A DNA stretch of 45,080 nt from a virus (taxonomy: Duplodnaviria; Heunggongvirae; Uroviricota; Caudoviricetes). Positions within the stretch are counted from its first letter, which is position 1, and every line of letters starts with the position of its first letter. The position numbers and the translations under genes were made by a program. The notes beneath the pieces were generated by a model. The model searched no databases and was not told the origin of the DNA. It worked only from the letters and a program-made list of their open reading frames with translations. Location of the stretch: IMG/VR virus record IMGVR_UViG_3300045988_006100, positions 1-45,080 of that record. One strand, 5' to 3'. Shown here in pieces: positions 4,461 through 37,944 of this stretch.

Positions 4461-4500
4461 CGATAAGTGAATAGTATCCTATTATGTTGGGGTGTGCAAG
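4461..4500. promoter_or_regulatory. conserved promoter/operator element (family member A), possibly bidirectional
   Basis: GTGAATAGT-N4-CTATTAT core followed by GGGGTGTGCAAG; reverse complement reads TTGCAC-N17-TACTAT; sits at the divergence point of the left and right arms. Confidence 0.45.
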
Positions 4501-11836: not shown

Positions 11837-12115
11837 ATGGCAGCGGAACTTAAGAGATACAGACGCATCACATACTGCAAATTTTGTAAGGCAGAAGGTA
11901 AAAAAGTTAGAGCAATTTGGATGACTAAATACCCTCCAGCTTACGGTGTACGAGACTGGTATAAACACTATGCATGCGAGGAGCATAAACATTTAATAGA
12001 AGACACAGACCCAGACCGGACTTGGGCAGAAATCATAGAACGCGGTAAAAACAAGAAACAAGATCGCGACGACCATCTCACAGAAGCAGACTATCAGACG
12101 TGGTACAGACTATGA
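11837..12115 (+). CDS. hypothetical zinc-binding protein
   Basis: 92 aa; CKFCK...CEEH pattern. Confidence 0.45.
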   Translation: MAAELKRYRRITYCKFCKAEGKKVRAIWMTKYPPAYGVRDWYKHYACEEHKHLIEDTDPDRTWAEIIERGKNKKQDRDDHLTEADYQTWYRL

Positions 12116-14295
12116 ACACATTGCTTTACTTAGACTTTGAAACCTACAGCGACATCGATTTGAAGAAAGTAGGTTCCTACGCTTACGCTGAACACCCGTC
12201 AACCGAAGTGCTTATCTGTACCTATGCTTTTGACGAAGAGCCTGTGCAGGTATGGGATTGCACCGACGGCAGCGACATGCCGGGGGATTTGCACCGCGCA
12301 CTGCGCCGCCTTGTTAAGCCCAACAGCCGCATCAAGATTGTGTGGCACAACGGTGGACTTTTCGATCGCCTAATCATGAAACACTGCTGGGGCTTTGATA
12401 TTCCGGTAAGTAACACCATTGATACTATGATTTGGGCGTTCCGTCACGCGCTGCCGGGTTCTCTTGATGCGCTGTGCGAAGTGCTGGGCGTGTCTGCAGA
12501 CAACGCGAAAGATAAACGCGGCAAGGCTCTGATTAAGCGTTTCTCTAAACCGACGCCGAAGAACTACAAAATCCGCCGCTACACCGCAGAAACTCACCCT
12601 GACGAGTGGGCGATGTTCATCAGGTACGCCGTGAGCGACATCACTGCGATGCGGGAAGTGTTCCATAAGCTACCGCGTTGGGGTAACTCGGAGTTTGAGG
12701 ACCGTGTACTGGAACTGGACCAGTTAATCAACGACCGCGGGTTTAGGGTTGACGTTGCACTTGCGGAAGCTGCGATTGAGGCCGTAGAGAAGCACAAGGC
12801 CCAGCTACAGGAAGAAGCCCAACGCAAATACGGCGGCTCGCTTACTGGAAAGGATTTTCTACCAATTCTGCGTGAACTGGCACCTGCGCATCGAATCCAC
12901 AACGCGCAGAAGTCGACGCTGAATGACCTGTTGGCAGATGATGATTTACCGGACGACGCCCGGATGATTATCGAAATGCGCCTCGGGGCCGCGTCAACAG
13001 CGTCCACGAAATATAACCCGCTGCTGTTAGGCCGCTCGTCGGACGACCGACGCCGCGGTTGTATCCAGTACGGTGGGGCAAAGCGTACGTTACGGTTCGC
13101 GGGTAAAGGCTTCCAGCCACAGAACCTGGCACGTGGGTACTATCACGATGATGAACTGGATAAAGGCATTTCAGCGTTACTTAAGGGCCGGGCGCACCGC
13201 CGATTTGACGTAGCCAAGCTGACGGCATCTACCGTTCGTAGCTGCATTATACCGGAAGCTGGGCATAAGTTTGTCGTCGCCGATTACTCTAACGTTGAGG
13301 GTCGCGGGCTTGCGTGGCTGGCAGGCGAAGAAACCGCGCTAGATACGTTCCGCTCCGGACTGGATATTTACTGCGTAACAGCAGGTAAGATGTTTGGCAT
13401 GGAGCCGGATTACATTAAGAAAGAACGTAAAGACTTACGCCAGATTGGTAAAGCCTGCGAATTGGGCCTCGGATACGCGGGCGGTGTCGGTGCTTTCGTT
13501 CAGTTCGCTAAAAATCTCGGCCTTGACCTGGTTGATATGGCTAAAACAATGGACGGTACTTTCCCGGACCATATATGGGCCGCTACTGCACGCGGGTATG
13601 AATGGGCGCGTATTCAGGAAGCAAAGAGACCGCCGCGTCCCGGTGAAAAGGATGACCGACCATCATATATTCTTGGTAAGAAAGTGTGGCGTACCTGTGA
13701 CGCTATCAAGCGCATGTGGCGGGAGTCCCACCCGGAAACAGTAGCTTTCTGGCGTGATATTGAAGACGCAGCTATGGCAGCAATCCGTAATCCGGGGAAA
13801 GAGTTCACAGCTGGCCCTCGCGGGGTTAAGTTTTCTCGCAACGTAGAAACAGACAACAACGGCAACAAAGTCGCTGGTTGGTGGTTGCGCATGACGTTGC
13901 CGTCAGGTCGCGTTATGTCATACCCGGGCGTCGGGTTGAGCGTGTCAAAAGAGACAGACGAAGACGGAAAAGTTTCTACTAACGTGCGCATCAAGTATCA
14001 GGGTGAAAATCAGTTAACCAGGCAGTGGGGCTTCCAGTACACCTACTCCGGTAAACTGGTGGAAAACTGCACTCAGGCATTGTGCCGTGATTTGCTGGCT
14101 AATGCCCTGCTGAACGTAGAAGCAAACGGCTACCCGATTGTACTTCACGTACACGATGAGATTATCTGCGAGACACCAGATTCACCGGAATACAATGTAG
14201 CAGAGCTTGAGCGGTTGATGTGCGAATTGCCGGAATGGGCGGAGGGGTTCCCTCTTGTAGCTGAAGGTGCGGAGATGAAGCGATATGCCAAGTAA
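12112..14295 (+). CDS. DNA polymerase, family A, with 3'-5' exonuclease domain
   Basis: Exo motif LDFETYSD; Pol A motifs DYSNVEGR (A), RQIGKACELGLGYAGG (B), HVHDEII (C); ATG at 12112 overlaps upstream stop (ORF open from GTG 12100). Confidence 0.85.
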   Translation: MNTLLYLDFETYSDIDLKKVGSYAYAEHPSTEVLICTYAFDEEPVQVWDCTDGSDMPGDLHRALRRLVKPNSRIKIVWHNGGLFDRLIMKHCWGFDIPVSNTIDTMIWAFRHALPGSLDALCEVLGVSADNAKDKRGKALIKRFSKPTPKNYKIRRYTAETHPDEWAMFIRYAVSDITAMREVFHKLPRWGNSEFEDRVLELDQLINDRGFRVDVALAEAAIEAVEKHKAQLQEEAQRKYGGSLTGKDFLPILRELAPAHRIHNAQKSTLNDLLADDDLPDDARMIIEMRLGAASTASTKYNPLLLGRSSDDRRRGCIQYGGAKRTLRFAGKGFQPQNLARGYYHDDELDKGISALLKGRAHRRFDVAKLTASTVRSCIIPEAGHKFVVADYSNVEGRGLAWLAGEETALDTFRSGLDIYCVTAGKMFGMEPDYIKKERKDLRQIGKACELGLGYAGGVGAFVQFAKNLGLDLVDMAKTMDGTFPDHIWAATARGYEWARIQEAKRPPRPGEKDDRPSYILGKKVWRTCDAIKRMWRESHPETVAFWRDIEDAAMAAIRNPGKEFTAGPRGVKFSRNVETDNNGNKVAGWWLRMTLPSGRVMSYPGVGLSVSKETDEDGKVSTNVRIKYQGENQLTRQWGFQYTYSGKLVENCTQALCRDLLANALLNVEANGYPIVLHVHDEIICETPDSPEYNVAELERLMCELPEWAEGFPLVAEGAEMKRYAK

Positions 14296-17999: not shown

Positions 18000-18025
18000 A
18001 AAGGCCCCGTTTGGGGCCTTAGTTT
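18000..18025. terminator. bidirectional rho-independent terminator
   Basis: GGCCCC-GTTT-GGGGCC hairpin flanked by A-rich and T-rich tracts; separates convergent early and tail blocks. Confidence 0.75.
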
Positions 18026-23460: not shown

Positions 23461-24879
23461 TTAACCGCCCACATTAAAATCAATACGAGTTATGTATTTA
23501 CTACCCCACGCCGAATCCGCTTGTGGTATGGCGGCGTAACCGTCAACAGACGGAACGTTTACCACAGTGCCGTCGGAATAGGTAATGTCGATGCTTGTTG
23601 CGCCGTTCATTGCTACTTTTGCCGATGCTGATGGGCGTGTAGCTGGCGATGCATCAGTTACTATCGGCGACGTGGCAAATGGTTTTTTTTCAACCTGAGC
23701 GGAAGCAACTGAAAAAGAAGATGCTCCATCCGATGCGTAAGACGGGAGTCTGGTAGACGTCATAGACGGTATGCTTGCCACCGCGAGGGAGGATAGTGCA
23801 GAACCGTCTCCTGTCGCGGTTGTGGTAGTTGAGCATAGAACCCACCCATCAGATATTTCAGTTACGAAAGCCGATGTCGCCGTGCCTGATATAGCTTTAT
23901 TAATAAGGTCGAAGTTAGAGTAGCGCGATGAAATCCCTGTGCTACCTGCGTTCCAATAAACCTGAATAAACTGGACACCATTCGCCTTAAGAATTACCGT
24001 AGCAGTATATGTTTCCCCAACATCTATTACTGAATCCCCCAGCGATTCGGCAAACAAGAAATGGCTGTTATTTTCTGCTGTTGGGGTGACTGTGCCCGCC
24101 AGGTTGCCTTGATATACACTGTCCTCTGTTGATGTTAGTGATATACGGTTGAAAGTACGTACCCACCCAATACCTAACCCGCCTATCTGGTAGTTAATAG
24201 AACCGCCTTCTGGCGGCACACGCCCAACGGCAACACCATCAATAAATGTTAGAGGCCATTCATTAGTGGCTGATTGCACAAGATTGCCGTTGCGGTTGAT
24301 GTAGTAAACCTGCGGCCCATCGTAAACAATGCGGCCATCTAGAGTCGACGCCAGAAGGTTAATCGGCGGGTATCCTGCAGGCCCCTCATTGCTCCAGATG
24401 CGCGGGAACGTTGTCGCATAGTTAGCATATATTTTCAGGAAACTACCAAGGCAGTCTCCATAGCAGCCGTACAAATCCGGCAGATTATTGACAAGGCACT
24501 GGTTCTCGAGGTCCTGGAACGGCGATTTCTCAGCGGTTGCCGTGAAAGTAATTGTCCAGTTAATCCCGTCTTCGGTGGACTCGGCGATGGTGGACGTGAT
24601 GGTTACCTGATAATCCTCGATACCCATACCGAAGTCGTGGGCCATCCAGAAACTGGACGCGCCGCCGTCTACTTTCTCAAGGAACGACAGGAACGCCTGT
24701 CGCCCCATTGCCGAGGTGATAAGCGTAACACTGACAGGGAACACGTCATAATAGGTGTCGCGCCCCTGACGAACGCCACCACCGGCTAAATCCACACTCC
24801 AGACGTTGTTACGTCTGGTCATAGAGTAGCCTTTTGACACAATAGGCTTAAGGCTACGTGGAAAATATAAGTCGCTCAT
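23461..24879 (-). CDS. minor tail protein (lambda M-like N-terminus with C-terminal extension)
   Basis: 472 aa; immediately downstream of tape measure gene. Confidence 0.5.
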   Translation of the reverse strand: MSDLYFPRSLKPIVSKGYSMTRRNNVWSVDLAGGGVRQGRDTYYDVFPVSVTLITSAMGRQAFLSFLEKVDGGASSFWMAHDFGMGIEDYQVTITSTIAESTEDGINWTITFTATAEKSPFQDLENQCLVNNLPDLYGCYGDCLGSFLKIYANYATTFPRIWSNEGPAGYPPINLLASTLDGRIVYDGPQVYYINRNGNLVQSATNEWPLTFIDGVAVGRVPPEGGSINYQIGGLGIGWVRTFNRISLTSTEDSVYQGNLAGTVTPTAENNSHFLFAESLGDSVIDVGETYTATVILKANGVQFIQVYWNAGSTGISSRYSNFDLINKAISGTATSAFVTEISDGWVLCSTTTTATGDGSALSSLAVASIPSMTSTRLPSYASDGASSFSVASAQVEKKPFATSPIVTDASPATRPSASAKVAMNGATSIDITYSDGTVVNVPSVDGYAAIPQADSAWGSKYITRIDFNVGG

Positions 24880-27218
24880 TATTTGAACCCCGGCGCATTT
24901 CTTGTGGCCTTGCGGGCCTTGCTAATCTTACTGTTACTGTTCTGCAAAGAGGCAGCCACTTGCTCCTCGATGATGATACGCAAACGGCCTTCATCATCTT
25001 GCTCAGTGGATACGTTGCCTATTTGAGAACTCGTGTTATTTACGATAGTAACATTAGATGGGCCGGAAGAAGACCCGTTTTGACCCATAATTTCTTTCAT
25101 CTGCTGCGCGGTGCGCACACGTGATGCACCAGCCGGCATGATAACTTCTGGTTTACCGCGCTCGGCGATGGTGGAAGCCTGTCCCGCAGATAACTGACCG
25201 CCCTGTTCACGCGCGGACCTGATAGCGGAAACCTGAGCCATACCTGCACCAACGGCAGCGGCAGCGGCTACAGGGGCCAGGAACGGACCAACTACAGGGA
25301 TAGCCGCCGTGGACTTGTAAGCCTCGATAGCTGCGGTGTACGTGGCTATGGTGGCCTGTACGATAGCGAATGCCTTATACGCACCAGAAGCCTCGCCCAA
25401 CGCAGACCCGATGTTTGACGCCATGTTACCGAAGGCGGTTGCCGTTGCGTCGGCTCGCTTGGTTGCGTACTGCTCGTTGATGGCGTTAAGCGCGGCCTGA
25501 TACTGCTTCTCGCTAATAAGACCCTGTTCACGGTACTTATCGGCTACTGCCAGTTTCTGCTGTTCCTGAATATCCAGAAGCTCAAGCTCGGTGGCGTTCT
25601 GACCCATAATCTGAGCCATGAAATCCTCGCCTTTCTGCTGATTCTCCTGGGCCTCCTTCCTTTTCTTATCCAGTTCTTCCTGGCGGGCCTGTTCCGCGGA
25701 TAACATAATCTGCGTCTTGGCGTTTTCGTACTGTTGGTCGCTAAGAAGCTTATTGCTATAGAAGTCCTGCAACTTAGACAGTTGCTCTTCCTGGTTAGCT
25801 TCTATTTTCTGAAATACGTCATCATTAAGATGGATTGACTGATAGTAGAAGTCTTCCGCCGCTTTTTTCTGGCGCTCGAACGCGTCCGCCGCTTTCTTAG
25901 CGGCTTTTGCGGCTGACCCGTCATCGTCAGAACCGCCGCCAGTTCCGGTTACCTTAAATTTGTTTAACCCCTCAGCTTTTGCGGACTCCTTATCGATGTC
26001 ATACGCCGCGCGTTTTAACGCTACAATATCCTGTTGAGCTTCTACCTGTTCGCGGAAACTTTTACGCGTAACGTCGGTGACATCGCGCTGGGTATCCAAA
26101 GCCAGGCCAAGCTGGAAGTTGATATTTTTAGCTACGTCTACTGATTCCCCGGGGGTAAAAGCGGCTCGTACAAGACGGCCCGCGTCCTGCGCGCCTTTAA
26201 CCATATCTTCAAAGAATCTCTCCATCGCGGTGAACTCTTCCGCGATGAAGTCAAGCGCATCGGCGGCGGATTCAGCGATGGTAGTAGCCGTTTGTTCTCC
26301 GCTATCCGTAATACTCTTGCTGCTGAAATCCCACAGTTCATTAAGCCCGTTGATGGCATCGCCAACAAAGCCAAACGCAGCGTCGAATGACATCTCGATA
26401 GCGCTTCCTACTTCCGACGCGATGTTCCCCCACATCTGCATTTCAGCGGCTAATTCACCGGAAGCAACAGACGCGTTTAATTCCTGAATCAAGTCATCGA
26501 TATACCTGATAGGTTCAGCAAGTGCGCCAACATCAAGACTGGTGGCAAGCGTCATTTTTAGCTGCGACCATGAGTCACTGGCGCTCGCGATAGCGCCATT
26601 AAGGGTGTTGGCCTGGTCCGCCATGGCACCGGCAAAATTTACGTTACCAATATTAAGTAAATACTGCTCAATATCGGCAGCGCTTTTCTTAACTACGGTT
26701 GTTGTCCCCTGGAATGTAAACTCTACGTCGTTTTTGTTCTGCTTGGCTTTGATGCCGAATTCTTTTAGGCGTTCGAACTCAAACGTACTGGCGTCGGCTA
26801 CCGCCTCAATCATCTGATTAAGGTCCTTGCCCATAGCCGATGCGGTATTGCCGTAGGACCGCAACGCCTCCTCGGATGGGGTAAGGCCAAGGGCCACCAG
26901 CTTACGGAAGCCTTCCACCGCCTGCTCCAGTCCGTATGGGGTATCGCGGGCAAAATCTTGCAGGATACTTAGCGCCTGTTTAGCACCTTGGGTACTTCCT
27001 GTTAAGGTCTTCAAACTGGCGGACATCTTGTCCAGTTGCCGCTGTGAGTCAACCAGTTCTTGGGCAGCTTTATACGCGGTAGCCGCTACGATAGAAGCAA
27101 GGCCTGCTACGGCGGCCCCCGCTACTTTTGCGGACTTTGAAAGGTTGTCAAGACGGTCTGATGTGGCTTTCGCGCCTTGCTCTGTTACTTTTACTACTAA
27201 ACTAGCTACATCAGCCAT
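24879..27218 (-). CDS. tail tape measure protein
   Basis: 779 aa, alpha-helical Ala/Gln/Glu-rich with Gly-rich segments; follows chaperone pair. Confidence 0.8.
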   Translation of the reverse strand: MADVASLVVKVTEQGAKATSDRLDNLSKSAKVAGAAVAGLASIVAATAYKAAQELVDSQRQLDKMSASLKTLTGSTQGAKQALSILQDFARDTPYGLEQAVEGFRKLVALGLTPSEEALRSYGNTASAMGKDLNQMIEAVADASTFEFERLKEFGIKAKQNKNDVEFTFQGTTTVVKKSAADIEQYLLNIGNVNFAGAMADQANTLNGAIASASDSWSQLKMTLATSLDVGALAEPIRYIDDLIQELNASVASGELAAEMQMWGNIASEVGSAIEMSFDAAFGFVGDAINGLNELWDFSSKSITDSGEQTATTIAESAADALDFIAEEFTAMERFFEDMVKGAQDAGRLVRAAFTPGESVDVAKNINFQLGLALDTQRDVTDVTRKSFREQVEAQQDIVALKRAAYDIDKESAKAEGLNKFKVTGTGGGSDDDGSAAKAAKKAADAFERQKKAAEDFYYQSIHLNDDVFQKIEANQEEQLSKLQDFYSNKLLSDQQYENAKTQIMLSAEQARQEELDKKRKEAQENQQKGEDFMAQIMGQNATELELLDIQEQQKLAVADKYREQGLISEKQYQAALNAINEQYATKRADATATAFGNMASNIGSALGEASGAYKAFAIVQATIATYTAAIEAYKSTAAIPVVGPFLAPVAAAAAVGAGMAQVSAIRSAREQGGQLSAGQASTIAERGKPEVIMPAGASRVRTAQQMKEIMGQNGSSSGPSNVTIVNNTSSQIGNVSTEQDDEGRLRIIIEEQVAASLQNSNSKISKARKATRNAPGFK

Positions 27219-27570
27219 CGTTTCTACCCTCGAAAATAGCGTCTAAGCTCATGATGATGTCGGATTCGAACATCCCTATATTCTGGCCTGAAACGGTGCT
27301 GTACGCCACTAAATCTGACCATCGTAATTGCTCGCGCGGGTACATCTTGATGCCGTCGTCGTCCACTCGGCGGGTGAATTTAATTTCCCTGTACTTCTCA
27401 AATGTGGTTAGTAGTTCAGGGGGGCATTCCGGCCCAGTGGCCTGCGTTGCGTCCGGCGCGTCTTGCATAACCCCCATAGCAATTAGCGCGGCTTTATGCC
27501 CATCGGCGATACTGTCAAATTCCCGCCGTTTGTGGCGGGTTATGAAGTTCCAACGGGCGAACTGGAGCAA
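27211..27570 (-). CDS. tail assembly chaperone, frameshift-extension ORF (T-like)
   Basis: No ATG start (TTG in track); -1 frame relative to upstream chaperone ORF; overlaps tape measure start. Confidence 0.45.
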   Translation of the reverse strand: MLQFARWNFITRHKRREFDSIADGHKAALIAMGVMQDAPDATQATGPECPPELLTTFEKYREIKFTRRVDDDGIKMYPREQLRWSDLVAYSTVSGQNIGMFESDIIMSLDAIFEGRNDG

Positions 27571-27575
27571 CGCGT

Positions 27576-27992
27576 CTACTTTTCCTGTAGCTGGTGCAGT
27601 TGTTCGTTATGAAACACAACAACAAGTTCCGCGAGTCGTTTATATTGCGTCAGGAGTGTGTTCAGATTCTCTTTATTGAATTCGTCGTCAAGGCTCCACC
27701 CGTTAACCAATTCAACCGCTAACTGACGGTTAAGGTCCGTCGCCGCGTCTTCCATCTTCAGGTTGTATTCAGAGAAATCTTTCATCTCTTCGCACTTATC
27801 ACGAAGCGGTTTTAATTTCCCTAACACTGCCCGGTATGCGAGGGTGAACGCGCGCATAGCCTTAACGGCAACGTCTGCCTCAGGAGAAACAACATTAAGC
27901 CATTCCCCGGAATCGGTACCGTCTTTTAATGGTATCGGCATACGTGCACCCTTTTCAGCTTCAGCTTCGTAATAAAAATCAGAAAGTTTCAT
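27576..27992 (-). CDS. tail assembly chaperone (G-like)
   Basis: 138 aa acidic protein directly upstream of tape measure; ends with GAAAAG-TAG slippery context. Confidence 0.55.
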   Translation of the reverse strand: MKLSDFYYEAEAEKGARMPIPLKDGTDSGEWLNVVSPEADVAVKAMRAFTLAYRAVLGKLKPLRDKCEEMKDFSEYNLKMEDAATDLNRQLAVELVNGWSLDDEFNKENLNTLLTQYKRLAELVVVFHNEQLHQLQEK

Positions 27993-28098
27993 TCTTTAAT
28001 CCTTTGGTTAAGAGGTTACTGGTTAAAGGAAATGCGCCAGACGGGAACCACCCGCTTTTCGTGTGCGACACTAGGCGCAAAATTATTCTAACATACTA

Positions 28099-28139
28099 CT
28101 TGCACACCCTGATATAATAGCGTACTATTCACTTACACC
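28099..28139. promoter_or_regulatory. conserved promoter/operator element (family member B), bidirectional
   Basis: TTGCAC-17 nt-TACTAT on + strand with internal TATAAT; reverse complement carries GTGAATAGT-N4-CTATTAT core; between divergent genes 27992 (-) and 28171 (+). Confidence 0.55.
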
Positions 28140-28170
28140 AACGATGTTATCTCAAATCAGGAGTTATGTT

Positions 28171-28362
28171 ATGACCGGTATCGCTATGTTCTTTTTAATT
28201 ATTGTTGTAGGCGTTTATTTTATCCCGTTTTTTGTGGCCCATATGCGAAACCATAAAGCAAAGCTAGCGATATTCATGGCTAACTTATTTCTCGGGTGGG
28301 TTCTGTTGCCGTGGGTATTCATTTTAATCTGGGCTTGTAACTCGAACGTGAAAGAGAAGTAG
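28171..28362 (+). CDS. superinfection immunity-like two-TM membrane protein
   Basis: 63 aa; YFIPFFVAHMRNHKAKLAIFMANLFLGWVLLPWVFILIWA resembles the Imm_superinfect family pattern; AGGAG SD. Confidence 0.55.
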   Translation: MTGIAMFFLIIVVGVYFIPFFVAHMRNHKAKLAIFMANLFLGWVLLPWVFILIWACNSNVKEK

Positions 28363-28400
28363 GCTACTATAAGACAAATCCTAAACACGAGGAAGTAAGC

Positions 28401-29531
28401 ATGGCCCGGAAGAAAATAACCGACGAACAGTTACAGGAAGAATTGAACGCCGGAATGAAGAATGTAGACATCGCCCGTAAATACGGCATCTCAGACCGCG
28501 TAATTCGTATCCGTAAAGCGAAGCTGGCTAAGAAAGGTGTAGGTCACGGACGTGATGTTAGCCACCTTGTCCCGGACGGCTATAAGATTAAAGGAACGTC
28601 GTCACTGGTGGATGAGTTCGGCAACACTAAGTTGCAATGGGTTAAGACCGACACTGACGCCGAACGTCAGGTTGAATTGATGAAAGCCGTGATCGAAGGC
28701 ATGAAATCGGAGATTACGCCCGTTGCACCTGTTAAAGCCGTTCGTGCCAAACGGGACGATAAGCTGCTCAATCTTTACACTGTATCCGATTTCCATCTCG
28801 GTATGCTGGCCTGGGCCGACGAGAGCGGCGACGACTGGGACATGAAGATTGCGGAAGACCTGTTCTCTCGTTGGTTCGATGCAGCATTCCAGAAAGCACC
28901 GGATGCCGGTACTGGGGTTATCAATCTTCTTGGCGACTTAGCGCACTTCGATAGTCTTGATGCCGTTACGCCCGCAAGCGGTCATGTCCTTGACGCTGAC
29001 ACGCGCTATCAGAAACTGGTCCGTTACATGATTCGTATGGTCCGCCGTGTCGTTGATATGGCGTTGGTTAAGCATAAAAATGTTCGCTTGCTTATCGTGC
29101 AAGGGAATCACGACGAATCGGGTATGATTTGGTTGGCTGAGATGTTCAGTACGCTGTACGACAATGAGCCGCGCGTGTTCGTCGATACGTCGCCGGATGT
29201 TTACAAGATGGTGCAACACGGCAAAACGACGCTGTTCTTCCATCACGGGCATAAAGCACGATTCGACGCTATCGAACCGGTTATGATTGCCAAGTTCCGT
29301 AAAGCGTTCGGCGAGAGTGTTTACAGCTACGCCCACGTAGGCCATCTGCACCACCAGAAGATTGTAGAAAGCCGTAACATGATTGTTGAGCAACACCGCA
29401 CCTTAGCGGCTAAAGACGCCTACGCCTCTCGCGGCGGATGGATGTCGGGCCGCAGTGCAAATGTAATTACTTATAGCGCCGAATATGGCGAGGTCGCACG
29501 TTTAACTATTTCACCGGAGATGCTGGGATGA
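28401..29531 (+). CDS. metallophosphoesterase with N-terminal HTH-like segment
   Basis: Calcineurin-like motifs DFHLG, GDLAHFD, QGNHDE, FFHHGH, GHLHH; N-terminal DIARKYGISDRVIRI. Confidence 0.7.
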   Translation: MARKKITDEQLQEELNAGMKNVDIARKYGISDRVIRIRKAKLAKKGVGHGRDVSHLVPDGYKIKGTSSLVDEFGNTKLQWVKTDTDAERQVELMKAVIEGMKSEITPVAPVKAVRAKRDDKLLNLYTVSDFHLGMLAWADESGDDWDMKIAEDLFSRWFDAAFQKAPDAGTGVINLLGDLAHFDSLDAVTPASGHVLDADTRYQKLVRYMIRMVRRVVDMALVKHKNVRLLIVQGNHDESGMIWLAEMFSTLYDNEPRVFVDTSPDVYKMVQHGKTTLFFHHGHKARFDAIEPVMIAKFRKAFGESVYSYAHVGHLHHQKIVESRNMIVEQHRTLAAKDAYASRGGWMSGRSANVITYSAEYGEVARLTISPEMLG

Positions 29532-30016
29532 AAGATATTGTAATTTTCGATTTAGACGGGACATTGGCCGACGGTACCCATCGCTTACACCTGTTACCAA
29601 AAGATAACTACGGAGAAACGTGGGCGTGGAAGCCATTTAACATAGCCTGCAAAGATGACGCTCCGATATACGACAATATCCATTTGTGTAGCGTACTGTG
29701 GCATTCCGGACTTACTATAATTATCCTTACCGGGCGAAGTGATGACGCTGAGGAGGAGACTCGCGAATGGTTACGAGAGAATAACGTTAGGTTTGACACG
29801 CTAATCATGCGCAGCAAACACGACAACAGAAAAGACATCGTAATTAAAGAAGAGGTGTTGCGTGCTTTCGGACTGGAAAGAATCTTGTGTGCGTTCGACG
29901 ACTCTCCAGCGGTAATAAAGCATTTCCGTGACCTCGGCATAACCGCACACGCAGTTGCCGAATACGACTGTAACGGGAACTCTACACACTTAAAACCACA
30001 CGGGAGCGATAAATAA
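29528..30016 (+). CDS. HAD-superfamily phosphatase
   Basis: Motif I FDLDGTL, motif II ILTGR, motif IV FDDSP. Confidence 0.6.
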   Translation: MKDIVIFDLDGTLADGTHRLHLLPKDNYGETWAWKPFNIACKDDAPIYDNIHLCSVLWHSGLTIIILTGRSDDAEEETREWLRENNVRFDTLIMRSKHDNRKDIVIKEEVLRAFGLERILCAFDDSPAVIKHFRDLGITAHAVAEYDCNGNSTHLKPHGSDK

Positions 30017-30570
30017 TGGCTAAGGTAATTATTCTTAATGGCCCTGCGGGTTGCGGGAAAGACACGCTTGCTATGGCGCTGGTAGAAATGGGCTTTGCGA
30101 AAGGAACTACCAGTTTCAAGAATCCAATGTTCAATATTGCTTTGGCAGCGTTAGGCCAGGATGCTTACCACGAATTTCTCGACGGCTACGACGACCGGGC
30201 GCGGAAAGAAAAACCCGAGGGTTTTCTTAATGGGTTGTCCCGCCGCCAGTTAATGATTGCCATTTCTGAGCAATTCATTAAACCGGTATTCGGCGATGAT
30301 TATTTCGGTAAGTATCTTGCTGAAAACTTGCCTGACGGCGACGAAGTTTTTGTAGTGTCCGATGGTGGATTCGCCAGTGAAGTTGCCCCTATCGTCGCCG
30401 CGGGGCATGACGTGCGAATCGTCCGCCTCCATCGTGACGGCTATACGTTCATCTGCGATAGCCGTGGCTATCTGTACGATGTTAGTGGTGTAAAAGATTA
30501 CGACACCTACATCATACCGGGTGACGTTAAATCGAACGTTATAGACATTGCTTTAAAATTAGGTTTGTAA
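30016..30570 (+). CDS. P-loop kinase, deoxynucleoside monophosphate kinase-like
   Basis: P-loop ILNGPAGCGKDT plus RRQLMIAISEQF segment resembling T4 gp1-type dNMP kinase. Confidence 0.55.
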   Translation: MAKVIILNGPAGCGKDTLAMALVEMGFAKGTTSFKNPMFNIALAALGQDAYHEFLDGYDDRARKEKPEGFLNGLSRRQLMIAISEQFIKPVFGDDYFGKYLAENLPDGDEVFVVSDGGFASEVAPIVAAGHDVRIVRLHRDGYTFICDSRGYLYDVSGVKDYDTYIIPGDVKSNVIDIALKLGL

Positions 30571-30600
30571 GAAAAAGGCCCCGAAAGGGGCCTTAGTTTT
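30571..30600. terminator. bidirectional rho-independent terminator
   Basis: AGGCCCC-GAAA-GGGGCCT hairpin flanked by A-tract and T-tract; between convergent genes. Confidence 0.75.
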
Positions 30601-31771
30601 ATGCGTAGGTGATACGTTGAATTACGATAGACGACTGGTACTGGTTGCCGGTGGACTGTCCTTCTATACTCTGGGTAATAGATTCAGGGCCGCCAATCTC
30701 TGGCGTAACTGCGGTCAACTCGGCGCGTTTCAAACTGAAAGACATAGCCCCGTTTACCCCCGCCAGAATAGAGTTAATCTCTACCTGCTGTTCGTTGATG
30801 AACTTCTGAATCATAGCCATGTCATACAGCTTACCGGAGATGGAGAAGGTGTTAGCCGCGCGGCTACGTTCCACAAACGCAACGTTAGAGTTGCCGAGTT
30901 CGAACTGCGCGGACGCGCTGTTGTCGTTGGTGATGGTAAGGCTATCACAACGCAACGGCGTAGAGCCATCGAACACGGAAACGTCAACCGAAGAGAACGG
31001 CTCATCACCAAAAGTAACAGATGAGAAGTTGGAACCGGTCGGCGGCGTAGTGAGAATCTCCTGACTGCGACCGATGAATGGGAAGCTGCCAGTTACCATC
31101 GCGTTAACAGCCTGTTCGATGGTAAAACCAGAAACTTCCACGCCTTTGGTTAACGTGTACGCGTCAGTACCGCCGCACTGGCCTTTGTACCAGGTAAGGA
31201 TAGAGAACGTCTTACACGTGTTACCGGTTTCCAACGTGTCGCCAGTTTTAGCCTTACTAGTTTTTGTCTCGGTGGTCAGGGTGTGTTGGATGCCCGCACC
31301 AGTAACAACCGTAGCCGTTACTGCAGTAACAATAAATGGTTTTGCGTTATCGCCTGTTAAATCGGTAAACGCAATCAGGTCGCCTACCCCAACTCCGTCA
31401 GTGATAAAACTGCCGGTAGCGCGTGTGAACGTCTTGCCCGCGGGTGCGACGGTAATCGATAGTCCTGACAGGGAAACGCCGGATTGCCACGTAGAGCCTA
31501 AAGCCCCGGCTAACCAGTCGTCCTGACTTTTAGAGCTAAGCTCAATAGCGTATTCTCCGCTAACCTGCTTGTTACCGGTGCGGATGGATGTGGTTTCTCG
31601 GCTGCCGTCAAGTTCGTTGGAGGTCAGCGTGTCGCGGGTAATGGCAGGAACGCCGCCCGTGTTGCGCAACGGCGACCATACCGGGTTAGCCGGTGTTACG
31701 CCCGGGGTCACTTCCGCCACATAGAATTGCGCGGTATTCGCGCCCTTAAAAGGAGTTGTAGCCATATTCAC
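30599..31771 (-). CDS. major tail protein (tube)
   Basis: 390 aa; follows a run of small head-tail joining ORFs. Confidence 0.5.
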   Translation of the reverse strand: MNMATTPFKGANTAQFYVAEVTPGVTPANPVWSPLRNTGGVPAITRDTLTSNELDGSRETTSIRTGNKQVSGEYAIELSSKSQDDWLAGALGSTWQSGVSLSGLSITVAPAGKTFTRATGSFITDGVGVGDLIAFTDLTGDNAKPFIVTAVTATVVTGAGIQHTLTTETKTSKAKTGDTLETGNTCKTFSILTWYKGQCGGTDAYTLTKGVEVSGFTIEQAVNAMVTGSFPFIGRSQEILTTPPTGSNFSSVTFGDEPFSSVDVSVFDGSTPLRCDSLTITNDNSASAQFELGNSNVAFVERSRAANTFSISGKLYDMAMIQKFINEQQVEINSILAGVNGAMSFSLKRAELTAVTPEIGGPESITQSIEGQSTGNQYQSSIVIQRITYA

Positions 31772-37652: not shown

Positions 37653-37691
37653 TTTGCACACCCCAATATAATAGGGTACTATTCAGTTAAC
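37653..37691. promoter_or_regulatory. conserved promoter/operator element (family member C), bidirectional
   Basis: TTGCAC-17 nt-TACTAT with internal TATAAT on + strand; reverse complement carries GAATAGT-N4-CTATTAT core; upstream of gene 37710. Confidence 0.55.
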
Positions 37692-37709
37692 TTAAGCAGG
37701 AGGTGAAAA

Positions 37710-37913
37710 ATGTATGCAATTTGCGAAGTAGTTCAAGAGTTCGATGAAGAGTTCGACGGTGACTTGTGCCGTGTTAAAAAGGTTCTGCAGGTTTTCCCTG
37801 ACGCAATGTCTGCTTACAAGGCATTAGATGTATTTGAACCTGGAAGATACGGGGATTATGACACTGTTCTGAGGGTCGTCCACGAGCAGGATTTAAACAC
37901 AAGATTCCGTTGA
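37710..37913 (+). CDS. hypothetical acidic protein
   Basis: 67 aa; strong SD AGGAGGTGA; isolated + gene followed by strong terminator. Confidence 0.5.
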   Translation: MYAICEVVQEFDEEFDGDLCRVKKVLQVFPDAMSAYKALDVFEPGRYGDYDTVLRVVHEQDLNTRFR

Positions 37914-37918
37914 AAACT

Positions 37919-37944
37919 AAGGCCCCTTAATGGGGCCTTTTATC
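37919..37944. terminator. bidirectional rho-independent terminator
   Basis: AAGGCCCC-TTAA-TGGGGCCTT hairpin with TTTTAT tail. Confidence 0.75.

What the first reader, a model, noticed from the sequence alone, without database searches (positions are those of the whole stretch)
28099..30600. Promoter-to-terminator cassette of immunity and nucleotide-metabolism genes inserted between tail tube and tail-assembly genes
Four + strand genes interrupt the otherwise - strand morphogenesis region: a superinfection-immunity-like two-TM protein, an HTH-fused metallophosphoesterase, a HAD-family phosphatase and a dNMP-kinase-like P-loop kinase. The cassette is bracketed by a bidirectional conserved promoter (28099..28139) and a strong bidirectional terminator (30571..30600). 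It separates the major tail protein gene from the chaperone/tape-measure genes, which is unusual for lambda-type tail modules. The phosphatase-kinase pair resembles a split polynucleotide kinase/phosphatase (nucleic-acid end healing) as much as dNMP salvage.
Basis: partly seen in the sequence, partly recalled or inferred. Interest (0 to 1): 0.45.

Follow-up and report, generated by a model that had tools for sequence, protein, structure and literature searches.

The report
Accessory enzyme operon inside phage tail genes
A real four-gene unit with its own promoter and terminator sits between the tail-tube and tail-chaperone genes of this E. coli Kagunavirus, but the slot is shared by its whole phage subfamily, already annotated in public genomes, and looks more like immunity plus nucleotide supply than a split DNA/RNA-repair kinase.

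Summary
Four + strand genes (28171-30570) interrupt the - strand morphogenesis block: a T4 Imm-type membrane protein, an HTH-fused metallophosphoesterase (MPE), a Pnkp-type HAD phosphatase and a P-loop kinase. A conserved promoter (28100-28128, three copies in the window) and a hairpin terminator (30575-30594, three copies) bracket them.

The window is a Kagunavirus (Guernseyvirinae), 95-99.6% identical to GenBank phages that carry the same annotated genes. The slot is ancestral to the subfamily, not a recent insertion:
- Jerseyviruses carry Sii and MPE plus other genes.
- Serratia phage Tsm2 carries a single gene there.
- An outgroup Vibrio phage has tube, chaperones and tape measure contiguous.

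MPE is core (98% amino-acid identity). Kinase hits at 80% identity or more number about half the MPE hits at 90% or more, so HAD and kinase look accessory.

The most likely role is early-expressed superinfection immunity plus DNA-breakdown and dNMP salvage. No function was tested. An int-alpA RNA match forms the 5' leader of the chaperone/tape-measure transcript. Interest is modest.

The parts
28017..28081 (-). int-alpA-type structured RNA, the probable 5' leader of the TAC/tape-measure transcript
   Evidence: Rfam RF02996 scores 36.6 bits against a gathering score of 35.8. 97% of cells are paired and 3 pairs show compensatory changes between Kagunavirus and Jerseyvirus, with 0 of 500 shuffles reaching this. 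The MFE fold reproduces the structure, but its z-score is only -1.2.
28085..28093 (-). Extended -10 promoter TGnTAGAAT for the chaperone/tape-measure genes
   Evidence: TG and TAGAAT are invariant while n is T, C, A or G in the 15 distinct Kagunavirus sequences. Jerseyviruses have TGTTATTCT. Function is inferred.
28100..28135 (+). Conserved promoter element of the cassette: -35 TTGCAC at 28100-28105, 17-nt spacer, -10 TACTAT at 28123-28128
   Evidence: A 19-nt core of the element matches three times in the window (28100+, 37654+, 4481-) against 0 expected. The hexamers and spacing are conserved in SETP13 and Tsm2.
28171..28362 (+). Superinfection-immunity (T4 Imm-type) membrane protein of 63 aa. 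An upstream ATG at 28144 lacks an RBS.
   Evidence: PF14373 1.6e-13 and phrog_1039 1.3e-23. The RBS AGGAG lies 7 nt before 28171. Relatives annotate a 192-nt CDS.
28401..29531 (+). HTH-fused metallophosphoesterase of 376 aa, the 'DNA repair exonuclease' family phrog_704
29528..30016 (+). Stand-alone HAD phosphatase of the Pnkp phosphatase-domain clade, 162 aa
   Evidence: PF25109 2.4e-20 and phrog_415 6.4e-63. PDB hits above noise are all Pnkp enzymes: 4xrp 4.9e-6, 5uj0 7.7e-5, 1ltq 1e-3. The DxDGT, TGR, RKD and DD motifs are visible in the alignment.
30016..30570 (+). T4 gp1-like P-loop (d)NMP kinase of 184 aa, Walker A GPAGCGKD
30575..30594 (.). Bidirectional intrinsic terminator shared with the convergent tube gene
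   Evidence: The same stem occurs at 18001-18020 and 37919-37939.
30599..31771 (-). Tail tube protein (flank)
   Evidence: PF18906 1.2e-36.
27211..27992 (-). Tail assembly chaperone pair, G/GT-type: two ORFs that map onto one PHROG profile (flank)
   Evidence: PF08748, PF23812 and phrog_15027; the two ORFs match profile positions 1-138 and 143-259.
24879..27218 (-). Tape measure protein (flank)
   Evidence: phrog_1538 3.2e-205.
37654..37939 (+). Sibling cassette: the same promoter, a 67-aa ORF (37710-37913), and the same terminator stem
   Evidence: The ORF has no PHROG match.

Best explanation
This is an ancestral, self-contained accessory operon of the Guernseyvirinae. It is transcribed against the late genes from its own sigma-70-type promoter and stops at a terminator shared with the tube gene.

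It encodes a T4 Imm-type superinfection-immunity membrane protein followed by a three-enzyme module:
- an HTH-tethered metallophosphoesterase whose fold is nearest to nuclease-type enzymes (Mre11, SbcD, PolD-DP1);
- a Pnkp-type HAD 3'-phosphatase;
- a T4 gp1-type (d)NMP kinase.

Proposed mechanism (inferred, not shown). The MPE cuts or trims DNA, either host chromosome or damaged and intermediate DNA. The HAD enzyme removes blocking 3'-phosphates from ends or from 3'-nucleotides. The kinase converts the released dNMPs to dNDPs, which host Ndk turns into dNTPs for the phage's own T7-like replisome. The module would therefore serve nucleotide supply and DNA turnover, not act as a two-piece polynucleotide kinase-phosphatase.

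Shown: the gene content, its homologies, the conserved control elements, the age of the slot, and the recurrence of the triad. Inferred: expression timing, all substrates, and the shared pathway.
For: Architecture.

Age of the slot:
- Kagunavirus relatives 95-99.6% identical carry the same genes.
- Jerseyviruses carry Sii and MPE plus other genes.
- Tsm2 carries one gene between the same kind of promoter and terminator.
- The Vibrio outgroup has no slot.

Kinase: 1DEK is the top hit in two independent structure searches. The next hits are phosphomevalonate and adenylate kinases, all of which phosphorylate a phosphate rather than a hydroxyl. The family match is phrog_139, 2.1e-44. In 15 of 30 kinase clusters at 70% identity the kinase stands alone within +/-5 kb, as a dNMP kinase can.

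Triad: MPE, HAD and kinase abut in the same order in Klebsiella phage Jem_ER55 (41/55/41% identity) and in Erwinia phage S2 (49/49/50%). In S2 the triad lies between exonuclease/endonuclease VII genes and a DNA ligase gene. The same holds in 7 of the 30 kinase clusters. In Aeromonas phage AHPMCC11 an annotated but BLAST-undetectable phosphoesterase precedes HAD and kinase.

Replisome: the phage encodes helicase-primase, a gp2.5-like SSB, PolA and an exonuclease. From my own knowledge, T7 feeds such a replisome from degraded host DNA and encodes a dNMP kinase, gp1.7.

Literature: a 2026 study of Drexlerviridae independently noted exonuclease, PNK and dNMP kinase together and proposed nucleotide supply (PMC13164509).
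Against: - Nothing here shows any substrate.
- No Rad50/SbcC partner was found among the genes flanking the MPE or among the ORFs scanned.
- A Pnkp-type 3'-phosphatase is not a standard part of dNMP salvage.
- HAD and kinase are translationally coupled, and HAD lies upstream of the kinase within about 2 kb in 15 of 30 kinase clusters. That also fits an end-healing pair.
- In Erwinia phage S2 the triad abuts a DNA ligase.
- Early timing is only inferred from the shared promoter.
Confidence: 0.5

Rival explanations
1. Split end-healing system. The HAD enzyme removes 3'-phosphates (or 2',3'-cyclic phosphates) and the kinase phosphorylates 5'-OH ends of broken DNA or RNA. A ligase can then seal them: host LigA or RtcB here, the phage ligase in Erwinia phage S2. 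The MPE would create or trim such ends. This would be repair, or counter-defence against end-damaging nucleases.
For: - The HAD protein is a specific homologue of the Pnkp phosphatase domain, with catalytic motifs intact.
- The HAD and kinase genes overlap (TAATG) and are linked in many lineages.
- In S2 the order is MPE, HAD, kinase, DNA ligase.
- A bacterial MPE nuclease is known to yield mixed 3'-PO4 and 3'-OH ends inside a ligase operon (PMC7826289).
Against: - The family has an invariant Lys (K35) at the end of beta-2. From memory, hydroxyl kinases carry a general-base Asp at that position.
- No ligase-sized ORF in the window is left unassigned.
- HAD-only genomes (phiEc3, SBP) and kinase-only genomes exist.
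Confidence: 0.2
2. There is no shared pathway. The slot is a permissive site where unrelated accessory genes accumulate, and each gene acts on its own: Sii in exclusion, the MPE in an essential replication or recombination role, HAD and kinase as dispensable extras.
For: - Slot content varies. The 3' part holds small ORFs, HNH endonucleases, a Rha/KilAC protein, HAD alone, or HAD plus kinase.
- Conservation differs sharply: MPE 98%, HAD 87%, Sii 78% and undetected in 5 of 15 loci.
- XY1 shows an allelic-replacement scar.
- Kinase hits at 80% identity or more number 53 records. MPE hits at 90% or more number 112.
- GC content is uneven: Sii and the intergenic region 42%, HAD 46%, MPE 52%.
Against: The same three genes recur in the same order, abutting, with similar divergence, in unrelated genome contexts. 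Chance accumulation does not predict this.
Confidence: 0.2
3. The cassette is a recent horizontal insertion into this particular phage.
For: Its orientation is opposite to the flanking genes, and it has its own promoter and terminator.
Against: The slot is occupied in every Guernseyvirinae genome inspected, and the intergenic control region is conserved. MPE composition matches the flanks.
Confidence: 0.03

Closest known systems
The same cassette in published Kagunaviruses (e.g. BEU33, vB_EcoS-phiEc4, vB_Eco_K-02, Golestan, K1G)
   Same: Nucleotide identity is 87-99.6% with the same four genes in the same slot. They are annotated as superinfection immunity, DNA repair exonuclease/phosphoesterase, polynucleotide kinase/acid phosphatase, and dNMP kinase.
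   Different: Nothing material. Some relatives lack the kinase (phiEc3) or both HAD and kinase (Ivi).
Exonuclease, PNK and dNMP-kinase cluster of Drexlerviridae and a Klebsiella siphophage (PMC13164509; Klebsiella phage Jem_ER55)
   Same: The homologous MPE, HAD and kinase occur in the same order and abut, at 41/55/41% identity.
   Different: There the cluster sits beside the lysis genes, co-oriented with its neighbours. It has no Sii gene and does not lie inside the tail module.
T4 polynucleotide kinase-phosphatase (PseT) and bacterial Pnkp1
   Same: The HAD phosphatase domain is homologous, with the catalytic DxDGT, (S/T)GR, K and DD motifs.
   Different: The kinase is a separate polypeptide from a different P-loop clade (gp1/NMP-kinase-like). 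No cognate ligase is present in this phage.
T4 gp1 deoxynucleoside monophosphate kinase (PDB 1DEK)
   Different: The protein is shorter (184 against 241 aa). Sequence similarity is undetectable by HMMER against PDB. The substrate is unknown.
Phage morons (self-contained promoter-gene-terminator units within late operons)
   Same: It has its own promoter and terminator, lies between late genes, starts with a superinfection-exclusion type gene, and varies in content among relatives.
   Different: It is transcribed against the late genes. It holds a strongly conserved enzyme gene (MPE) that behaves as core rather than accessory. This is a virulent phage.
Mre11/SbcD nucleases and PolD DP1
   Different: It has an N-terminal HTH and no recognisable capping domain. 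No Rad50/SbcC partner was found among the flanking genes or the ORFs scanned. The margin over non-nuclease MPEs is small.

Membership tests
Bifunctional polynucleotide kinase-phosphatase (T4 Pnkp type), as a split version | HAD phosphatase domain of the Pnkp clade with catalytic DxDxT, (S/T)GR, Lys and DD motifs | tested here: met
   PF25109 2.4e-20 covers positions 2-140 of 143. PDB hits are 4xrp, 5uj0 and 1ltq. The motifs IFDLDGT, LTGR, RKD and FDDS are visible.
Bifunctional polynucleotide kinase-phosphatase (T4 Pnkp type), as a split version | 5'-OH polynucleotide kinase domain related to Pnkp/Clp1-type kinases | tested here: not met
Bifunctional polynucleotide kinase-phosphatase (T4 Pnkp type), as a split version | Kinase and phosphatase on one polypeptide | tested here: not met
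   They are separate ORFs overlapping by 1 nt. The listed kinase homologues are 156-257 aa, apart from one partial hit at 17% query coverage, so none is long enough to be a HAD fusion.
Bifunctional polynucleotide kinase-phosphatase (T4 Pnkp type), as a split version | Cognate ligase encoded by the same genome | tested here: not met
   No ligase was found among the scanned replication ORFs, and no unassigned ORF is of ligase size. A DNA ligase does follow the triad in Erwinia phage S2.
Bifunctional polynucleotide kinase-phosphatase (T4 Pnkp type), as a split version | Activity on 3'-phosphate and 5'-OH nucleic-acid ends | not testable with these tools
   Needs enzyme assays.
T4 gp1-type dNMP kinase | NMP-kinase fold closest to 1DEK | tested here: met
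T4 gp1-type dNMP kinase | Family-level sequence match | tested here: met
   phrog_139 (deoxynucleoside monophosphate kinase) 2.1e-44. HMMER against PDB finds only the P-loop.
T4 gp1-type dNMP kinase | Phosphorylates dNMPs | not testable with these tools
   Needs enzyme assays.
Mre11/SbcD nuclease | Binuclear MPE motifs (DxH, GD, GNHD, H, GHxH) and MPE fold | tested here: met
Mre11/SbcD nuclease | Capping domain and a Rad50/SbcC ATPase partner | tested here: not met
P. putida MPE ssDNA endonuclease clade | Sequence or structure closest to 6NVO | tested here: not met
T4 Imm superinfection-immunity family | PF14373 match above the gathering score; small two-TM protein | tested here: met
   50.8 bits against a cutoff of 27.9. 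Two hydrophobic segments are visible in the sequence.
Moron-type autonomous transcription unit | Own promoter and own terminator within a late-gene block | tested here: inconclusive
   The sequence evidence is strong: elements repeated three times with 0 expected, conserved across genera, and a stable hairpin. No transcript data exist.
Moron-type autonomous transcription unit | Present or absent among otherwise syntenic relatives | tested here: met
   Absent in the Vibrio outgroup, one gene in Tsm2, and variable content in Jerseyvirus and Kagunavirus.
int-alpA RNA (RF02996) | Covariance-model score at or above the gathering score, with pairing maintained | tested here: met
   36.6 against 35.8 bits, which is borderline. 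Relatives that differ in sequence fall below the threshold. 97% of cells are paired, with 3 compensatory pairs.

The most novel reading that the evidence does not exclude
MPE, HAD and kinase form a dedicated three-enzyme pathway for DNA-end or nucleotide-signal processing that phages exchange as a unit. In this reading a gp1-like kinase has been recruited either as a non-homologous polynucleotide 5'-kinase (a new two-polypeptide Pnkp) or to clear alarm nucleotides such as the m6-dAMP that triggers PUA-Cal-HAD defence (PMC12871103). The module would then be counter-defence rather than housekeeping salvage.
Probability: 0.12. Interest if true: 0.65.

Novelty: already known. Interest (0 to 1): 0.3.

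Why it matters
The cassette itself is ordinary for this phage subfamily and is already annotated in public genomes. Three points have some value.
1. The HTH-metallophosphoesterase is one of the most widespread uncharacterised enzymes of virulent siphophages. It occurs in 2043 phage records and about 4600 clusters at 50% identity, and here it is more conserved than the tail tube.
2. It recurs with a Pnkp-type phosphatase and a gp1-type kinase as a portable triad. This gives a concrete biochemical hypothesis that can be tested in small, engineerable Kagunaviruses.
3. Routine 'polynucleotide kinase' annotations of the HAD gene are misleading. That gene carries only the phosphatase half, and the neighbouring kinase is not Pnk-like.

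Tried and rejected
- HMMER searches of PDB found only P-loop or HTH similarity. This held for the single kinase sequence, the kinase profile A1, the single MPE sequence and the MPE profile A4. Structure prediction was needed.
- NCBIfam added nothing.
- The generic sigma-70 scan did not flag the cassette promoter. It was found through its three repeats instead.
- I first read TGATATAAT (28110-28118) as the -10. I rejected this because it is not conserved in SETP13 or Tsm2, whereas TTGCAC-N17-TAYTAT is.
- The first MPE homologue search returned only sequences 97% or more identical. I replaced it with a profile search.
- Rfam at gathering threshold on relatives detected int-alpA only in copies identical to the window. 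I therefore counted covariation by hand.
- The phosphoesterase of Aeromonas phage AHPMCC11 upstream of HAD and kinase is not detectably homologous by BLASTP, so that triad counts only for HAD and kinase.
- The first parsing script read only 7 of the 80 loci. I reran it correctly.
Full report
**What the window is.** The 5-kb region around the finding is 95-97% identical to E. coli siphophages vB_EcoS-phiEc4, vB_Eco_K-02, Golestan and others. The cassette alone is 99.6% identical to phage BEU33. These are Kagunaviruses (Guernseyvirinae). The rest of the window encodes a T7-like replication set on the + strand: helicase-primase, exonuclease, gp2.5-like SSB, PolA, methyltransferase, helicase and primase. 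A long - strand morphogenesis block follows.

**The observation.** Between the - strand chaperone gene (27576-27992) and the - strand tube gene (30599-31771) lie four + strand ORFs. The first most likely starts at 28171, where an AGGAG lies 7 nt upstream. Relatives annotate a 192-nt CDS. MPE and HAD overlap by ATGA, and HAD and kinase by TAATG, so this is one operon.

**Domain evidence.**
- Sii: PF14373, 1.6e-13.
- MPE: phrog_704, 3.5e-167. Pfam Metallophos hits are sub-threshold, but the metal-ligand motifs are invariant across diverse homologues.
- HAD: PF25109 (Pnkp phosphatase domain), 2.4e-20. PDB hits above noise are only Pnkp enzymes, and the DxDGT, TGR, RKD and DD motifs are aligned.
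- Kinase: phrog_139, 2.1e-44.

**Control elements.**
- A conserved element starts at 28100, and a 19-nt core of it matches three times in the window (28100+, 37654+, 4481-) against 0 expected. Each copy lies 25-45 nt upstream of an RBS and ATG.
- What is conserved into Jerseyvirus SETP13 and Serratia phage Tsm2 is TTGCAY-N17-(T/C)AYTAT, a sigma-70-type promoter. The internal TATAAT is not conserved.
- The hairpin AAGGCCCC-GAAA-GGGGCCTT (30575-30594) folds at -21.3 and -15.4 kcal/mol on the two strands, with U-rich tails.
- The same stem occurs at the other two convergent junctions, 18001 and 37919.
- The 37654 promoter, a 67-aa ORF and the 37919 hairpin form a second, smaller + strand cassette inside the head genes.
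- The divergent - strand promoter is separate. It is TGnTAGAAT at 28093-28085. The n varies while the TG and the hexamer do not in the 15 distinct Kagunavirus sequences.

**Is it an insertion?** Only in the deep sense.
- Every Guernseyvirinae genome I opened has an opposite-strand unit in this slot.
- Kagunaviruses carry Sii, MPE, HAD and kinase. Variants lack the kinase (phiEc3) or both HAD and kinase (Ivi). XY1 carries a divergent MPE allele plus a C-terminal remnant of the usual one.
- Jerseyviruses carry Sii and MPE followed by small ORFs, HNH endonucleases or a Rha/KilAC protein.
- Tsm2 carries a single 108-aa ORF with a signal-peptide-like N-terminus, between a similar promoter and terminator.
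- An outgroup Vibrio phage with a homologous tube (33% identity) has tube, two small ORFs and tape measure contiguous on one strand.
- Across 15 Kagunavirus metagenomic loci, mean amino-acid identity is MPE 98.1%, tube 94.6%, kinase 91.4%, HAD 87.4% and Sii 77.8%. Sii is undetected in 5 of the 15. The chaperone has three alleles.
- Kinase hits at 80% identity or more occur in 53 phage records. MPE hits at 90% or more occur in 112.

MPE therefore behaves as core, and Sii and the 3' genes as accessory.

**The kinase.**
- With 33 homologues the AlphaFold model is confident (pLDDT 94).
- Foldseek also ranks 1DEK first, followed by phosphomevalonate and adenylate kinases.
- All the top hits transfer phosphate to a phosphate, not to a hydroxyl.
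- The family has an invariant GKD Walker A and an invariant Lys at the end of beta-2. From memory, GKD is shared with gp1 and phosphomevalonate kinase, and hydroxyl kinases carry a general-base Asp at the beta-2 position.

**The MPE.**
- The family is very large: 2043 phage records, and 4624 clusters at 50% identity.
- The model has pLDDT 80. It shows an N-terminal three-helix bundle, a beta-hairpin linker and an MPE core.
- Nuclease is therefore the best guess, not a demonstration.
- P. putida MPE, which makes mixed 3'-PO4 and 3'-OH ends (PMC7826289), was an attractive lead but is not a close relative.

**The triad.**
- I examined 80 IMG/VR loci carrying a kinase homologue. They fall into 30 clusters at 70% identity.
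- Seven clusters have MPE, HAD and kinase abutting in that order. In eight more, HAD lies upstream on the same strand, abutting in one cluster and 600-2100 nt away in the other seven. Fifteen have the kinase alone.
- Annotated examples are Klebsiella phage Jem_ER55 (beside the lysis genes) and Erwinia phage S2 (Autographiviridae). The S2 order is exonuclease, endonuclease VII, MPE, HAD, kinase, DNA ligase.
- All three proteins diverge to a similar degree: 41/55/41% in Jem_ER55 and 49/49/50% in S2.
- Aeromonas phage AHPMCC11 has a phosphoesterase, HAD and kinase, but its phosphoesterase is not detectably homologous.
- A 2026 paper on Drexlerviridae reports the 'DNA repair exonuclease' as persistent in 508 of 522 genomes. 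It is often followed by 'PNK' and 'dNMP kinase', and the authors suggest nucleotide supply (PMC13164509).

**Interpretation.**
- The architecture and its evolutionary history are well supported.
- For function, I favour an immunity gene plus a module for DNA turnover and dNMP salvage. This rests on the kinase's affinities, the nuclease-like MPE, the T7-like replisome and the DNA-metabolism neighbourhoods of the triad.
- The end-healing reading stays alive. The HAD enzyme is truly Pnkp-type, it is translationally coupled to the kinase, and a ligase follows the triad in S2.
- A third possibility is that the genes merely share a permissive slot.
- None of these was tested functionally.

**Side finding.** Rfam int-alpA (RF02996) matches 28017-28081 on the - strand, just above its gathering score. 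The match starts a few bases downstream of the extended -10 and ends 25 nt before the chaperone start codon. Pairing is kept in 97% of cells. Three pairs show compensatory changes between the two genera, although these amount to roughly one evolutionary event.

Noticed in passing
window 28017-28081 (- strand): An Rfam int-alpA RNA match (36.6 against 35.8 bits) lies between the cassette promoter and the chaperone gene. It sits immediately downstream of a conserved extended -10, so it is probably the 5' leader of the chaperone/tape-measure mRNA. Compensatory changes between Kagunavirus and Jerseyvirus support the three helices.
   Followed up: partly
window 37654-37939 (+ strand): A second promoter-to-terminator mini-cassette lies inside the - strand head genes. 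It has the same promoter element, a 67-aa acidic ORF (37710-37913) with no PHROG match, and the same AAGGCCCC/GGGGCCTT terminator stem.
   Followed up: partly
window 4481-4499 (- strand) and 18001-20: A third copy of the conserved promoter drives leftward small ORFs. A third copy of the terminator hairpin sits at the convergent junction between the replication genes and the tail-fibre genes.
   Followed up: no
L004 (phage XY1) 2900-4633: A complete divergent MPE allele (60% identity) is followed by a 187-aa ORF whose residues 30-187 match MPE residues 219-376 at 86% identity. This looks like a scar of allelic replacement by recombination.
   Followed up: yes
L097 (Serratia phage Tsm2) 6156-6645: A minimal version of the slot: a single 108-aa ORF with a signal-peptide-like N-terminus, between TTGCAC-N17-CATTAT and a GGGGCC hairpin terminator. 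It has no Pfam match and may be an exclusion protein.
   Followed up: partly
window 27211-27992 (- strand); L009-L023: The chaperone pair maps onto one PHROG profile (positions 1-138 and 143-259), as expected for a G/GT programmed frameshift. The first chaperone has three alleles (about 100, 55 and 47% identity) among Kagunaviruses. In the five loci carrying the 47% allele, no Sii was detected.
   Followed up: no
window 12100-14295 (+ strand): The DNA polymerase ORF has an internal match to an endonuclease family (phrog_93, residues 450-543). This may be an inserted homing-endonuclease or intein-like segment.
   Followed up: no
L094 and L095 (Jerseyviruses S100, Kenya-K6): HNH homing endonuclease genes sit immediately downstream of the MPE in the same slot, and a Rha/KilAC-domain protein ends the cassette.
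   Followed up: partly
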